Below are positions 1,073-9,536 of a DNA stretch of 11,657 nucleotides, in pieces (positions within the stretch are counted from its first letter, which is position 1; every line of letters begins with the position of its first letter). A program made the translations under genes and the position numbers. The notes beneath the pieces are model-generated. The model saw nothing but the letters and a program-made list of their open reading frames with translations. It made no database searches and was not told the origin of the DNA. The DNA is from a virus (Duplodnaviria > Heunggongvirae > Uroviricota > Caudoviricetes): the IMG/VR virus record IMGVR_UViG_2537562189_000011, positions 1-11,657 of that record; one strand, written 5' to 3'.

Positions 1073-2277
1073 TCCGGTTTTTCTCCCTCGCTGATTTTTA
1101 CTTCCTGTTTCCATGCCTGACTGAACTCATCACCACCATCACGCGGTGACAGTCCTTCACGTTCGCGGGCTTCGTTCGGGCACATAACGCCGGATTTGAT
1201 GCCGCGCTCATAGGTGGCAAAGCGTTCGCCAGGTGTGGCCCGTAACAGGTCCGCGCTGTCAAACTCCACCTGATACCGGATACCAGGTACAGGCGAGGCC
1301 ACCAGCAGGGCGTTTTTTATCTGCTGCTCAAAGTTCGCCAGCCACGGGCGCATCGTCATGGTGAGAAATGCGCGGCTTGCCTCGCTGAAATTGCTGTAGG
1401 TGCTGTTGCTGTATTCCTGCAAAAAAATCGGCGAGACGTTGAACATTCGGGCGATGTCTTCAATGGTAAAGCGACGGGAGGCCAGCCATTCAGCATCCTG
1501 ATTACTCATGCCCAGCTGCTGATAGCTCATCCCCCCTTCAAGGATGGGCGTTTTTCCGGCGTTTCTGGCCCCTTTGTAGCGTTCCAGTGCGGCTAATGCC
1601 TGTTTGCCCTTCACGCCGTCCAGCCATTCGCCTGACGTGATAACCCCTGCCGCCATCATGCCATCACGCATCACGCTCGCGCCGTGGCGTTGTTGGGCCA
1701 GCCCAAGCCCCAGCGATTCGCGGCAGATGGTTACAGGTGAGCGCCCCATAAAGCCGTCATCCGTGGAGTAACGAAGGTGAAGTACTTCCCACGGTAAATA
1801 GTTGTGGGTGTTTCCGGTGTAGGCGTCAGTGATGCAATAGCGCCAGTTGTGTTCGCCTGTCTGCTCCACGTTCACCGACTGCGGCGGGTAAGGATGTAAA
1901 GCCGCCGGAAAACCATCACGCCCCCACTGAATAACCGCATAAGCATTACCGTTTAACAGGCAGTGGCGGATCATCATTCGCTTAAACTGGTAGGGGGTTT
2001 GCCATGCGTTCGGGCGCTCGTTGAGGATGTGATCGACCGGATGAGAATCAAGCCACTCGCGGGCCTCCTTCCCCTTCTCATTGCGTACCAGGTACAGGTA
2101 GCATGGCATAGTAGCCACCGCCTCAGAGATGACCGTAACGGCGTTCATGACGGCAGGCAGTGATTCCGCTGTCCCCGATGATACGTACTCACCCGCCCCC
2201 GTGTTCGATGTGCCAGCCAGCGCCATAAATTCATCAAGCGTCATGCTGCGCTGCTCTTTTTTCTTCTGAAAGGCCAC
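1069..2277 (-). CDS. Portal protein (HK97 family)
   Basis: 402-aa ORF in the size range and position of HK97-type portals. GTG start at 2277 preceded by GGGGG; alternative ATG at 2244 (MTLDEF...). Lies 3 nt after the protease stop. Confidence 0.8.
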   Translation of the reverse strand: MAFQKKKEQRSMTLDEFMALAGTSNTGAGEYVSSGTAESLPAVMNAVTVISEAVATMPCYLYLVRNEKGKEAREWLDSHPVDHILNERPNAWQTPYQFKRMMIRHCLLNGNAYAVIQWGRDGFPAALHPYPPQSVNVEQTGEHNWRYCITDAYTGNTHNYLPWEVLHLRYSTDDGFMGRSPVTICRESLGLGLAQQRHGASVMRDGMMAAGVITSGEWLDGVKGKQALAALERYKGARNAGKTPILEGGMSYQQLGMSNQDAEWLASRRFTIEDIARMFNVSPIFLQEYSNSTYSNFSEASRAFLTMTMRPWLANFEQQIKNALLVASPVPGIRYQVEFDSADLLRATPGERFATYERGIKSGVMCPNEAREREGLSPRDGGDEFSQAWKQEVKISEGEKPE

Positions 2278-4336: not shown

Positions 4337-5029
4337 TTAGCTGTCCTGGTAATTGCGCCATATTTCATCACCAGCACCATCTATACCCATTTCGGCATAA
4401 GTGCGATCGACTGCCTTTTTCAGGTCTCCGAAATTATCCGGCGGCTCCGGTGCCCTCTGTGCCTTCCTTGAACATTCCAGCCGTCGCATCGTGATGTGAT
4501 GCCGTTCCTTGTCTGTCTCCACCAGCTGCATGACTTCACCCCATCGCGCCGCCGCCCTCCGGTAAAAGCCTTTCGCCTCCAGTTCCTCCGCTATGCGGTC
4601 ATGTACCATCGTCACCCCCTCAGAACGAAATATCATCACCGTAAGGGTCATCGCTCCCGCTGGTGGCTGATTACCCTGTGTGCCTGTGGTTTTGCGTCTG
4701 TTCCCGCCAGGAAGTGCCGCACGGGCACTGATTACGCTGTCTGCAATAACCTGATAACCCTGCCGCGTTTCCCCATTCTGTCCGGTCCACTGGCTGACCT
4801 GCATCGTGCCGGATACGCTGGCAACGTCGCCTTTTTGATGTTTAGCCAGGAAGTCGGCCTGCTTACCAAATGCGATGACCGATAGCCATAACGTCGCCTG
4901 CCCATCCTGCGCCTGACTACATGGCAGCGATACCGCCATACGCGCCAGCGTCATCGGTGTACCCTTGCTGGTCTGTTTTACCTGCTGGTCGTCCACCAGC
5001 CGCCCGTAAGCCGCTATCTGTGCTGTCAT
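4337..5029 (-). CDS. Two-domain protein: N-terminal SSB-like OB fold, Gly/Pro/Gln linker, C-terminal PerC-like small-regulator domain
   Basis: 230-aa ORF, ATG at 5029 overlapping the upstream stop (ATGA). Residues 1-105 follow the SSB OB-fold pattern (GRL..D..V ... TLW.SVI.FGK.A.F..K..KGD ... WT...G..R). The C-terminal ~90 aa carries AEELEAKGFYRRAAARW, recalled from PerC-type regulators. An internal ATG at 4609 has a strong GAGGGGG Shine-Dalgarno 5 nt upstream. Confidence 0.55.
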   Translation of the reverse strand: MTAQIAAYGRLVDDQQVKQTSKGTPMTLARMAVSLPCSQAQDGQATLWLSVIAFGKQADFLAKHQKGDVASVSGTMQVSQWTGQNGETRQGYQVIADSVISARAALPGGNRRKTTGTQGNQPPAGAMTLTVMIFRSEGVTMVHDRIAEELEAKGFYRRAAARWGEVMQLVETDKERHHITMRRLECSRKAQRAPEPPDNFGDLKKAVDRTYAEMGIDGAGDEIWRNYQDS

Positions 5030-5277
5030 GCCGTCTGCTCTCCGGTTTTAACGTTGATGGTTGTTACCTGTTCCGCTTCGGCAATCTCCCGTTCTGTCAA
5101 CGTGGCAAAGTTTGCCGCTGCTGTGGTCATGAATGCGCTTATCAGTTCGGGATGCTCCTTCGCGTATCCTTCCCCCGCGTGGCGGTCTATCGTCCTGATT
5201 GCCACCTTTAAGGCCAGTTCAGCCATATCTAACGCCTTATATTTCGGCTCTGTTCTGTCTCTGCGTTTTTGGGTCAT
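5026..5277 (-). CDS. Hypothetical protein (about 83 aa), translationally coupled to the SSB-like gene
   Basis: The ORF track extends to a TTG at 5334 (102 aa), but that extension is encoded by the iteron repeats. ATG at 5277 (MTQKRRDRTEP...) has a GAGAGG Shine-Dalgarno; a further ATG lies at 5226. No recognised domain. Confidence 0.45.
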   Translation of the reverse strand: MTQKRRDRTEPKYKALDMAELALKVAIRTIDRHAGEGYAKEHPELISAFMTTAAANFATLTEREIAEAEQVTTINVKTGEQTA

Positions 5278-5288
5278 TTCTCGCAACC

Positions 5289-5479
5289 TCTCACTTTTTC
5301 GCCTCACTTTTTCAAGCGTCTCACTTCGTCGCAATTGGGATTTTTGGTTTTTCTATGTGTGTGTTTCATAAGTATTTTTTTACCCCTCACTTTTGAGGAT
5401 GTATACAGGTAGAAAAGTGAGGGAGAGCAGGCTAATTTTGGCCCTCTTTCTATCCACCTCGCTTTTGCTCCTCACTTTT
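5289..5479. repeat. Iteron cluster (CTCACTTTT) flanking an AT-rich segment; candidate replication origin
   Basis: Perfect copies at 5290-5298, 5304-5312, 5387-5395 and 5471-5479, one inverted copy (AAAAGTGAG, 5413-5421), and degenerate copies at 5320-5328 (CTCACTTCG) and 5459-5467 (CTCGCTTTT). AT-rich core at 5331-5384. Lies immediately 3' of the helicase gene. Confidence 0.6.
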
Positions 5480-6459
5480 ATAGCGGCGCTACATCATCCC
5501 CATCGATACGAATAACCCCATCTTTTTCCAGCTTGTACAGCCAGCGCCGGAAGTTTTTCATTTCATACCCCAGCTTTTTCATGTCATCACGTAACAGCGG
5601 GATCGTGCACTTGTCGCCGTTCTGTGTGCGTGAACGGATGCACCCCCATAGCGCGGTATGGTTTTCCGTCTTGTTCCCTGCCTCCTCGATGCGCTCCAGT
5701 TCAACGGGAGGGCGCGGCTTATCCACCACCACCAGCGACGTGATTAATTCACCGTCAGCGTCGGTAAAAAGCTCCACCACGCGTAAGTCATATGCGGCTT
5801 CTTTGAGTTCCTCCGCGTCCTTCATTTTGGTGCATGAGATAACCAGCGCTTCGCCTCCTGCGTCCTCCCTGCGTATCCGGTATTCAGCATCCAGCGAAGC
5901 ACGAAATGCACTGGAACCGCGCGCGCCTTTCGCTCATCCTTGCCGGAATGGTGAACCACCAGCACCGTGGCCCCTGTGCGTCGATTCAGTTCGTCACAAC
6001 CACGGATAAACGCCCCCATATCACGGGAATCATTTCATCATTCCCACCAAGGCAACGCGCCAGCGTATCCAGAATAATCATGCGTACAGGTTTACCCGTT
6101 TCCCGCTCCACCTGACGGGCAGCGATAACCATTTCATCAACATCAAGCGGGGCAGCCGGAAAGATGGGGCGGTTTACCAGATACAGATTTTTCACCTGCT
6201 CATCGTGCACAACCTCCCAGGCTTTTACACGACGCGGAACACCTATACCGCCTTCACCAACCACATAGAGAACCGCACCATGTGCAACCCTGCGGCCTCC
6301 CCACTGGCGACCAGTGGCAACATGGCACGCCCACGATCCGGCAAGGAATGATTTATAGGACCCGCTAGCCCCGTATATGCTGCATAGCGATACCGCCGGA
6401 ATAATCCCCTTAACCACGTAATCCAGTTGCGTGTCGTATCCGGTAGATCCAACGCTCAT
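5478..6459 (-). pseudogene. Replication helicase (AAA_25 / RepA-like) disrupted by two frameshifts
   Basis: Three consecutive minus-strand ORFs in three frames together form one helicase-like protein: Walker A GASGSYKS and Walker B MIILDTL (6459-5986), GATVLVVHHSGKD (6019-5822), C-terminal domain (5825-5478). Reading continuity needs about +1 nt near 6033-6035 and -2 nt in the CCGCGCGCGCC tract at 5917-5927, which restores ...HHSGKDERKARGSSAFRASLD.... Confidence 0.7.
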
Positions 6460-6875
6460 CGGTAGCGTGGTTTTTCGCTGGTGGTTTTTTCTTCCGCCGG
6501 CTCTTTCCCGCGCACCCGTTCCAGGTATTCGCGCCAGTTCTCCCGCATATGGCTGTGCATCCCTTCGGGGTAATAATTCGCATCAGTTACACCCGCCGCC
6601 GCCAGTTTGTGCGCAATGGCATTAATATTTGATGGCCTGATGTGGCCTGCCTTGTACAGCCGGACACAATAGCGCCCCTCGTCGATGATTCTCAGGTCTG
6701 CCAGTTCATCCAGTTGATCATCAGCCAGCACAACGGGAGGCACATTATCGCCAGCCAGTCGCCCGTCCTGTTCCTGCCACTGTTTCGCATGTGCCCAGGC
6801 ATCACTACCCGCAAAAATAATGACTTCGGTCATCTTGTCGTAAGGCTGTTTTTTTAAGTTCGGTGCGCTTTTCAT
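6456..6875 (-). CDS. Hypothetical protein (139 aa), coupled upstream partner of the helicase gene
   Basis: ATG at 6875 with AGGGG Shine-Dalgarno; ATGA overlaps with both the upstream gene and the helicase start. No confident domain assignment. Confidence 0.55.
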   Translation of the reverse strand: MKSAPNLKKQPYDKMTEVIIFAGSDAWAHAKQWQEQDGRLAGDNVPPVVLADDQLDELADLRIIDEGRYCVRLYKAGHIRPSNINAIAHKLAAAGVTDANYYPEGMHSHMRENWREYLERVRGKEPAEEKTTSEKPRYR

Positions 6876-7171: not shown

Positions 7172-7403
7172 TATTTTTATTCTCCGGTGTGCTGTTCGTT
7201 ATATCTGTCGTGCAATGTCTCTATTTCCTGCAACACATTTATTACAGGCTCAAGAAGCGTTATTAATGATGTAATAATCCGCGTTTTTTTTGCTATTACG
7301 TTCATTATCGCCAAAGGATTCAAGGCACATCCGCAATATTTCCATCATATTTTCACTGTGAGAAAGTGCAAGAAATACGCGATCTGTTGTTTCGTGGTAA
7401 ATA

Positions 7404-7637: not shown

Positions 7638-7870
7638 AACCCCCCCCCATTTTCACAATCAGCAATCAGGATAGCTTTGGCCTCATTCAGCGCCGTATCA
7701 GCACTAAATTGCATGACAGCCAGTGAGTGAGGAACGAAAGCACCGGCATATTCTGTTTCGCTGGTGGCGTGCTTATGTGCCCTGTCCGCGATAACAGAAA
7801 TATCAATCAGCGCGTGCATCAGCGTTTTGATGGCTTCGGCGGCTGCGTCCGGTGTGGTTTTATTGTGCAT
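7610..7870 (-). CDS. Hypothetical protein (86 aa); possibly the N-terminal half of a gene split at a homopolymer tract
   Basis: ATG at 7870; the reading frame runs through the G9 tract (ENGGG) and stops 27 nt later. Confidence 0.4.
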   Translation of the reverse strand: MHNKTTPDAAAEAIKTLMHALIDISVIADRAHKHATSETEYAGAFVPHSLAVMQFSADTALNEAKAILIADCENGGGLCVMIVLIP

Positions 7871-9386: not shown

Positions 9387-9536
9387 ATGACCAATAAAGA
9401 ATCAACCAATACACCATCGCAAAAAACGAACAGAGAGCACGAAAATATGGCGCTCGAGCATGAATCAGAAAGATTCGCTCCATGCGCTTTTGTCCTTGAT
9501 GAGTTTCTAAAAAATATTCACGTTCTGAACGGATGA
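9387..9536 (+). CDS. Hypothetical small protein (49 aa), MTNK... N-terminus; not in the ORF track
   Basis: ATG at 9387 to TGA at 9534-9536, translated by hand: MTNKESTNTPSQKTNREHENMALEHESERFAPCAFVLDEFLKNIHVLNG. Position and first codons parallel the ORF at 8646. Confidence 0.3.
   Translation: MTNKESTNTPSQKTNREHENMALEHESERFAPCAFVLDEFLKNIHVLNG

What the first reader, a model, noticed from the sequence alone, without database searches (positions are those of the whole stretch)
5478..6459. Replication helicase inactivated by two frameshifts, both at simple-sequence tracts
The Walker A/B region, the VLVVHHSGKD motif and the C-terminal domain lie in three different frames. Continuity is restored by adding one base in a short homopolymer at 6033-6035 and removing one CG unit from CCGCGCGCGCC at 5917-5927. 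The two shifts do not cancel, so the gene as sequenced cannot make a full-length initiator. Either the satellite is decaying and replication-defective, or these are tract-length sequencing errors; both are slipped-strand hotspots.
Basis: seen in the sequence. Interest (0 to 1): 0.6.

Follow-up and report, generated by a model that had tools for sequence, protein, structure and literature searches.

The report
Satellite helicase frameshifts: likely assembly errors
The replication helicase gene of this E. coli phage satellite is broken by three one-base deletions in this record, but the same satellite is intact in three other datasets, so the breaks are almost certainly errors of an old draft assembly.

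Summary
The frameshifts are really in the sequence, but the description needs correcting. The gene is a 466-aa RepA-family (AAA_25) helicase spanning 5478-6875 on the minus strand, not 5478-6459. It carries three single-base deletions, not two. They lie at 6485-6490 (T7 to T6), at 6033-6035 (T4 to T3) and between 5932 and 5933 (CGTCTC to CGCTC). The CG tract at 5917-5927 is unchanged in every intact relative.

The window is an exact piece of the draft assembly GCA_000194415.2 (E. coli O76:H- strain 1.2264). The same capsid-forming PICI sits at the same chromosomal site in three other datasets. Those three copies are identical to each other and have every gene intact.

Against them the window shows 12 indels and 10 substitutions, all between 2262 and 10422. 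The 5.2-kb chromosomal flank shows no difference at all. Natural pairs of these satellites show 14-34 substitutions per indel. The indels also break the portal gene, the SSB gene and two small genes. Restoring the differing base gives protein lengths equal to the relatives', and three of the restored proteins match widespread proteins exactly.

Verdict: consensus errors in an old draft assembly, in an ordinary satellite helicase. Real decay is unlikely but cannot be excluded without reads.

The parts
5478..6875 (-). RepA-family (Pfam AAA_25) replication helicase gene of a capsid-forming PICI. It is 466 aa when intact and is split into four ORF pieces in this record.
   Evidence: Intact homologues of 1401 nt / 466 aa are annotated 'helicase RepA family protein'. 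Re-inserting three bases gives a 466-aa ORF with AAA_25 at residues 148-315, E = 5e-43.
6485..6490 (-). Deletion 1. The window has T6 (A6 on the coding strand) where the closest relatives have T7. It ends the N-terminal ORF at 139 codons.
   Evidence: Some relatives have T4, which is in frame. None of 451 complete E. coli genomes with this stretch matches the T6 version in full. The resulting 139-aa product occurs in 36 blocks of the public collection, many of them from 2010-2012 drafts.
6456..6459 (-). ATGA overlap.
   Evidence: Read from the sequence. The gene aa + 327 aa in other assemblies overlap by 4 nt.
6033..6035 (-). Deletion 2. The window has T3 where all relatives have T4. It shifts the frame between the Walker B region and the VLVVHHSGKD motif.
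   Evidence: 13 of 13 aligned relatives have the extra T. No complete E. coli genome shares the lesion.
5932..5933 (-). Deletion 3. One T is missing between these two bases (CGTCTC to CGCTC). This is not a homopolymer. It shifts the frame just after HHSGKDE.
   Evidence: 14 of 14 aligned relatives have the T.
5917..5927 (.). It is unchanged in this window.
   Evidence: Identical in L001-L004 and in the intact L020-L022. One unrelated assembly (L016) has its own 1-nt deletion at the position equivalent to 5927.
5290..5479 (.). Cluster of CCTCACTTTT repeats, five direct and one inverted, just 3' of the helicase gene and overlapping its stop codon. This is the putative replication origin (inferred).
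   Evidence: None of the 22 differences from the intact relatives falls here.
2257..2262 (-). Lesion of the same kind in the portal gene. T6 against T7 frameshifts the first codons of the 403-aa portal protein.
   Evidence: The repaired 403-aa protein is an exact match to a protein seen on about 1000 contigs.
4654..4654 (-). Lesion of the same kind in the SSB gene. C replaces CC, which removes the acidic C-terminal tail and creates an SSB-PerC fusion ORF (4337-5029).
   Evidence: 12 of 12 relatives have CC. The fusion product is found only in this assembly. The repaired 136-aa SSB is an exact match on 224 contigs.
7294..7294 (-). One extra T that splits a 77-aa gene next to the DUF4222 gene. 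Gene calling gives 53 aa here.
   Evidence: Gene calls are 53 aa in this assembly against 77 aa in L020-L022.
9509..9514 (+). A6 against A7 truncates a 67-aa hypothetical gene to 49 aa.
   Evidence: The repaired 67-aa protein is an exact match on about 1000 contigs.

Best explanation
The region is the replication helicase gene of a capsid-forming phage-inducible chromosomal island (cfPICI) of E. coli. The gene is a single ORF of 466 codons. It encodes an N-terminal domain of about 130 residues with no family match, a linker, a RecA-like AAA_25 ATPase domain and a C-terminal domain. A cluster of CCTCACTTTT repeats lies directly downstream and is probably the origin the protein acts on (inferred).

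In this record the gene is cut into pieces by three single-base deletions. These deletions are most likely not in the bacterium. They are most likely consensus errors of the 2011-2012 draft assembly the window comes from (GCA_000194415.2, strain 1.2264). They belong to a run of 22 discrepancies packed into 8 kb near the end of a contig. These discrepancies are 10 one-base deletions, 2 one-base insertions and 10 substitutions.

Shown here: the lesions themselves, their absence from all relatives, and the abnormal spectrum of differences. Inferred: that the cause is technical. Possible causes are homopolymer undercalling and a poor consensus in a repeat-prone region at a contig end.
For: 1. Source. 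The window is an exact reverse-complement substring of AEZO02000023.1 and starts about 195 nt from the contig end. A paper names this accession series as strain 1.2264, O76:H-.

2. Intact copies. The same satellite sits next to roxA/pepT in L020 (GCA_037352345.1) and L021 (Logan assembly of SRR28385201). L022 (Logan assembly of SRR387477) carries the same satellite, but its contig does not reach those flanking genes. The three copies are identical to each other over 11.2 kb. They encode a 466-aa helicase, a 136-aa SSB, a 90-aa PerC and 77-, 83- and 67-aa proteins. The portal is called at 403 aa in L020 and 391 aa in L021/L022, although the DNA is identical.

3. Spectrum. Window against these copies gives 10 substitutions and 12 indels, all between 2262 and 10422. 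The adjoining 5,218 bp of chromosome shows no difference.

4. Baseline. Natural pairs of these satellites show 14-34 substitutions per indel. The probability of 12 or more indels among 22 changes is 2e-7 if 10% of changes are indels.

5. Blind to coding. Seven indels hit five genes and five lie between genes.

6. Homopolymers. Five of the 16 runs of 7 or more bases are one base shorter in the window, and none is longer.

7. Repairs. Restoring one base gives an SSB, a portal protein and a 67-aa protein that match exactly proteins seen on 224 to about 1000 contigs. These genes therefore carry no other change.

8. Rarity. None of 646 complete E. coli genomes with this stretch shares the lesions at 5932 and 6033, and none of 451 matches the T6 version. 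The frameshifted products of SSB-PerC and portal occur only in this assembly.

9. Same signature elsewhere. Other draft assemblies of the same era show homopolymer-only indels in the related island (L009 against the complete genome TR01: 7 indels, all in runs).
Against: No reads or quality values could be examined, so the errors are inferred and not seen. I could not establish the sequencing platform of this assembly from the tools; that it was pyrosequencing is my recollection only.

The discrepancies are confined to the satellite. Even without the long-run indels, 16 differences in 11.2 kb against none in 5.2 kb of flank gives P about 6e-4. A uniform error rate does not explain this. It needs a locally poor consensus, which is plausible at a repeat-prone contig end but was not shown.

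One lesion (5932/5933) and the ten substitutions are not homopolymer events. Three of the four substitutions in the helicase change conserved residues (F276L, K298N, S342G), which also fits relaxed selection.

I could not show that SRR387477 or the 2024 isolate is strain 1.2264 itself.
Confidence: 0.85

Rival explanations
1. The lesions are real. The copy of the satellite in strain 1.2264 is a decaying, immobile remnant that has picked up frameshifts in its helicase, SSB, portal and two small genes.
For: Five genes are hit, as expected once an element is dead. The differences are confined to the satellite while the chromosomal flank is identical to relatives. Three of the four helicase substitutions are non-synonymous at otherwise invariant positions. 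Homopolymers are also biological slippage sites.
Against: Indels outnumber substitutions (12 to 10), against 1 per 14-34 in natural pairs. There are no nonsense substitutions, larger deletions or insertion sequences. The SSB, portal and 67-aa genes carry nothing but the single indel, so all hits would have to be very recent. The intergenic indels have the same character. A genome-wide mutator is excluded by the clean flank. No other assembly shares the lesions at 5932, 6033, 4654 or 2257.
Confidence: 0.11
2. The A-run at 6485-6490 is a natural slippage switch. A7 or A4 gives a fused protein. A6 gives a separate 139-aa N-terminal protein and a 327-aa helicase, translationally coupled through the ATGA overlap, or the fused protein by -1 slippage. 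On this reading, at least this one break is a real, tolerated variant.
For: The 139-aa product occurs in 36 blocks of the public collection, on several different islands and in some recent assemblies. L013 shows this as its only indel in 4.9 kb. The break falls in the linker between the N-terminal domain and AAA_25. The stop and the restart overlap as ATGA.
Against: None of 451 complete genomes matches the A6 version. Many carriers are early drafts whose other indels are all homopolymer shortenings. The A6 run does not form a canonical X XXY YYZ heptamer in the reading frame (read from the sequence). This reading would explain one of the three breaks at most. The helicase is still destroyed by the other two.
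Confidence: 0.04

Closest known systems
Capsid-forming PICI (cfPICI) of Enterobacteriaceae, e.g. EcCIEDL933 (described in PMC10085698 and the work cited there)
   Same: The gene order on the minus strand is integrase, AlpA-type regulator, Icd-like and small genes, DUF4222, replication helicase, SSB, PerC, HK97-type capsid, prohead protease, portal, head closure, head-tail connector, HNH. Relatives continue with terS and terL. No tail or lysis genes are present.
   Different: Nothing of substance. In this record terS and terL are missing because the contig ends 195 nt past the window, and several genes carry single-base indels that the same island lacks in other datasets.
RepA-family hexameric replicative helicases grouped in Pfam AAA_25 (PF13481). 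That plasmid RSF1010 RepA is the classic member is my recollection and was not tested.
   Same: There is a strong AAA_25 match over residues 148-315 (E = 5e-43). The Walker A motif is GASGSYKS, the Walker B motif is RMIILD, and the HHSGKD motif is present.
   Different: The protein has an extra N-terminal domain of about 130 residues and a C-terminal domain of about 150 residues, neither with a family match. No solved structure was found by sequence at E <= 0.01. NCBI names the isolated N-terminal fragments 'DNA primase', but no primase family matched here.
Homopolymer-length consensus errors in early draft bacterial assemblies
   Same: One-base shortening of A/T runs of 7-8 bases, blind to coding status, giving split gene calls. 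The same pattern appears in other drafts of the era for the related island.
   Different: This window also has indels outside homopolymers and ten substitutions, all packed into 8 kb. That points to a locally poor consensus and not only to homopolymer miscalling.

Membership tests
Pfam AAA_25 / RepA-family helicase | Match to the AAA_25 profile above the curated cut-off | tested here: met
   The repaired 466-aa protein scores 147.4 bits against a cut-off of 27, over residues 148-315. RefSeq annotates the intact homologues as 'helicase RepA family protein'.
Pfam AAA_25 / RepA-family helicase | Walker A and Walker B motifs present | tested here: met
   GASGSYKS and RMIILDT are read in the translation of 5986-6459 and in the repaired protein.
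Pfam AAA_25 / RepA-family helicase | Single uninterrupted reading frame in this record | tested here: not met
   Three 1-nt deletions split the gene. The frame is intact in L020-L022 and in the complete genomes inspected.
Pfam AAA_25 / RepA-family helicase | ATPase, helicase and origin-specific activity | not testable with these tools
The link to the origin is inferred from the adjacent CCTCACTTTT repeats.
Capsid-forming PICI | Integrase, AlpA-type regulator and a replication gene in the left half | tested here: met
   The gene calls carry Phage_integrase, Phage_AlpA and AAA_25.
Capsid-forming PICI | Own capsid, protease, portal, head-tail connector or adaptor, and HNH genes | tested here: met
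   Phage_capsid, Peptidase_S78, Phage_portal, Phage_HCP, Phage_connect_1 and HNH are all called in the window's contig (locus L010).
Capsid-forming PICI | terS and terL present | tested here: inconclusive
   They lie beyond the end of the contig and are not in the window. They are present directly after HNH in relatives L001, L003, L004, L008 and L016.
Capsid-forming PICI | No tail or lysis genes inside the element | tested here: met
   None appears among the gene calls between the integrase and HNH.
Pseudogene (real gene decay) | Lesions reproduced in independent data from the same or a related strain | tested here: not met
   The lesions at 5932 and 6033 were found in no other assembly or complete genome. 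The closest relatives are intact.
Pseudogene (real gene decay) | Mutation spectrum like that of natural divergence | tested here: not met
   12 indels to 10 substitutions, against one indel per 14-34 substitutions in natural pairs.

The most novel reading that the evidence does not exclude
The A-run at the domain boundary (6485-6490) could be a real slippage switch in PICI and cfPICI replication helicases. It would toggle between a fused 466-aa protein and a translationally coupled pair (139-aa N-terminal protein plus 327-aa helicase), so that islands are switched replication-competent or not. The two other breaks in this window would still be errors.
Probability: 0.04. Interest if true: 0.45.

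Novelty: not a real feature. Interest (0 to 1): 0.08.

Why it matters
It matters mainly as a caution. Satellite catalogues built from draft assemblies will score this island as defective, with a split helicase, an SSB-PerC 'fusion' and a truncated portal. The element is most likely intact and mobile. If the lesions were real, it would be one more decaying island, which is also unremarkable. The gene itself is a common, already annotated cfPICI helicase, found in several hundred complete E. coli genomes.

Tried and rejected
1. An exact look-up of the 157-aa ORF (5986-6459) found nothing, because gene callers chose another start. The 139-aa and 115-aa pieces then led to the source contig.

2. 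My first screen for private indels, requiring the same alignment column in all relatives, missed the homopolymer events because BLAST places gaps differently. Left-normalising the indels fixed this.

3. I counted 'private' substitutions against a small set of mosaic relatives. The result was uninformative until the near-identical relatives L020-L022 were found.

4. I asked whether the substitutions look like trades between neighbouring homopolymer runs. About half would do so by chance, so I dropped the argument.

5. The repaired 466-aa and 327-aa helicase sequences are not in the protein collection. This is because of three amino-acid differences from the clean allele, so the look-up could not identify the strain.

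6. A sequence search of the PDB gave no hit, and NCBIfam gave only sub-threshold RadA matches.

7. A literature search for the run SRR387477 or for the sequencing method of strain 1.2264 found only a paper naming the strain.

8. I considered a programmed -1 frameshift at the A-run. The run is not a canonical heptamer in frame, and complete genomes do not match the A6 version, so I rejected it.

Full report
**What is in the sequence.**
The gene lies on the minus strand.
- ORF 5986-6459 holds Walker A (GASGSYKS) and Walker B (RMIILD).
- ORF 5822-6019 holds VLVVHHSGKDE.
- The frame of ORF 5478-5825 holds the C-terminal part.

**True extent of the gene.**
A search of complete E. coli genomes with 5300-6600 found 661 genomes with a match. 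The matched gene is annotated 'helicase RepA family protein'. In the annotated relatives it is a single gene of 1398-1401 nt (466 aa for the 1401-nt form). It also covers what is a separate 139-codon ORF in the window, 6456-6875. The gene is therefore 5478-6875. The ATG at 6459 is internal Met140.

**The lesions.**
Alignment with relatives shows three single-base deletions.
- T6 instead of T7 at 6485-6490. Some relatives have T4, one codon fewer and in frame.
- T3 instead of T4 at 6033-6035.
- One T missing between 5932 and 5933 (CGTCTC to CGCTC).

Re-inserting the three bases gives a 466-aa ORF. It has a strong AAA_25 match over residues 148-315. The first break falls in the linker before that domain. 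The shifted N-terminal ORF stops at a TGA that overlaps Met140 as ATGA.

**Where the window comes from.**
Exact look-ups of the ORF fragments led to the source. The window is an exact reverse-complement substring of contig AEZO02000023.1 of GCA_000194415.2 and begins about 195 nt from the contig end. A paper identifies this accession series as E. coli O76:H- strain 1.2264.

The element is a capsid-forming PICI inserted next to roxA/pepT. Its genes are integrase, AlpA, small genes, DUF4222, helicase, SSB, PerC, capsid, protease, portal, head closure, connector and HNH. In relatives terS and terL follow, but here the contig ends (family description in PMC10085698).

**Other genes are broken too.**
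In this assembly several other genes differ from all relatives.
- SSB and PerC are fused into a 230-aa ORF.
- The portal is called with a GTG start at 402 aa instead of 403.
- A 77-aa gene is cut to 53 aa.
- A 67-aa gene is cut to 49 aa.

Each case traces to one single-base indel. Restoring one base gives an SSB, a portal protein and a 67-aa protein that are exact matches to proteins seen on 224 to about 1000 contigs. These genes therefore carry no change other than the indel.

**The decisive comparison.**
The window's integrase is rare, and looking it up found the same island in three other datasets. These are a 2024 assembly (L020), a Logan assembly of SRR28385201 (L021) and a Logan assembly of SRR387477 (L022). 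All three are identical to each other over 11.2 kb and every gene is intact, including the 466-aa helicase.

The window differs from them at 22 positions, all between 2262 and 10422.
- 10 one-base deletions.
- 2 one-base insertions.
- 10 substitutions.

The 5,218 bp of chromosome next to the island in the same contig are identical to L020 and L021. Between natural pairs of these islands there are 14-34 substitutions per indel. Twelve or more indels among 22 changes has P about 2e-7 if a tenth of changes are indels.

Seven of the indels hit genes and five lie between genes. Five of the 16 homopolymers of 7 or more bases are one base short in the window, and none is longer. The chromosomal flank has no run that long. 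None of 646 complete genomes shares the lesions at 5932 and 6033, and none of 451 matches the T6 version. Other drafts of the same period show the same homopolymer-only shortening in a related island when compared with a complete genome.

**Interpretation.**
The spectrum of differences is technical in character and not evolutionary. Indels outnumber substitutions, they ignore coding status, almost all are one-base losses, and they sit in 8 kb near a contig end inside a repeat-prone mobile element. The most likely explanation is a poor consensus in an old draft assembly (confidence about 0.85).

Several things remain unshown.
- I could not see reads.
- I could not confirm the sequencing platform.
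- I could not prove that any of the intact datasets is strain 1.2264.
- The restriction of the discrepancies to the island needs a local cause. Leaving out the long-run indels, P is about 6e-4 for a clean flank under a uniform rate.

Real decay of this copy stays possible (about 0.11). It would require a burst of very recent, mostly frameshifting mutations limited to the island.

**A side issue.**
The A6 version of the first tract occurs in 36 blocks of the public collection, on several islands and in a few recent assemblies. Some of these may be true slippage variants that split the protein at its domain linker. This does not rescue the window's gene, and complete genomes do not support it.

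**What the gene does (inferred).**
It is the island's replication initiator-helicase. It probably acts on the cluster of CCTCACTTTT repeats at 5290-5479, directly downstream and overlapping its stop codon. An island-encoded SSB lies next to it.

**Verdict.**
There is nothing new biologically.

Noticed in passing
window 5290-5479: Five direct copies and one inverted copy of CCTCACTTTT lie in the 190 nt downstream of the helicase gene, the last one overlapping its stop codon. Some are spaced 83-85 nt apart, and there is a palindrome at 5384-5423. The cluster looks like the island's replication origin.
   Followed up: partly
window 4337-5029: A 230-aa ORF with both SSB and PerC domains is created by a one-base loss at 4654. 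It removes the acidic SSB tail (DDISF in the repaired protein). This product exists only in this assembly.
   Followed up: yes
L016 (GCA_900163895.1, FUKZ01000134.1), position equivalent to window 5927: An unrelated assembly has its own one-base deletion at the edge of the CCGCGCGCGCC tract, splitting its helicase into 354 + 115 aa. Whether that deletion is real or an error is unknown.
   Followed up: partly
window 6485-6490 and loci L005-L014: The T6/A6 allele that splits the helicase into 139 + 327 aa recurs in 36 blocks of the public collection, on different islands (lambda-type capsid PICI at roxA, cfPICI at tqsA). It is matched in none of 451 complete genomes with this stretch. This could be a mix of early-draft homopolymer errors and possibly rare true slippage.
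   Followed up: partly
window 7640-7648: A run of nine C at the junction of two small overlapping ORFs (86 aa and 77 aa) is C7 in several relatives. The length varies by two bases between islands.
   Followed up: no
window 1 / contig end: The source contig ends about 195 nt beyond the HNH gene, so terS and terL of the island are missing from the contig. In SRR387477 the island assembles as its own 15-kb contig that breaks 181 nt before the integrase. This could reflect repeats or a mixture of integrated and excised forms.
   Followed up: no
L008 (AEZK02000026.1) 5126-6342: An assembly with a neighbouring accession prefix (AEZK) has its island integrase split into 91 + 314 aa and also carries the A6 helicase allele. 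This suggests similar consensus problems there.
   Followed up: no
repaired helicase residues 1-140 (window 6456-6875): The N-terminal domain has no Pfam or NCBIfam match. NCBI nevertheless names isolated fragments of it 'DNA primase', and older annotations call it 'bacteriophage P4 DNA primase'. That name is not supported by any profile match here.
   Followed up: partly
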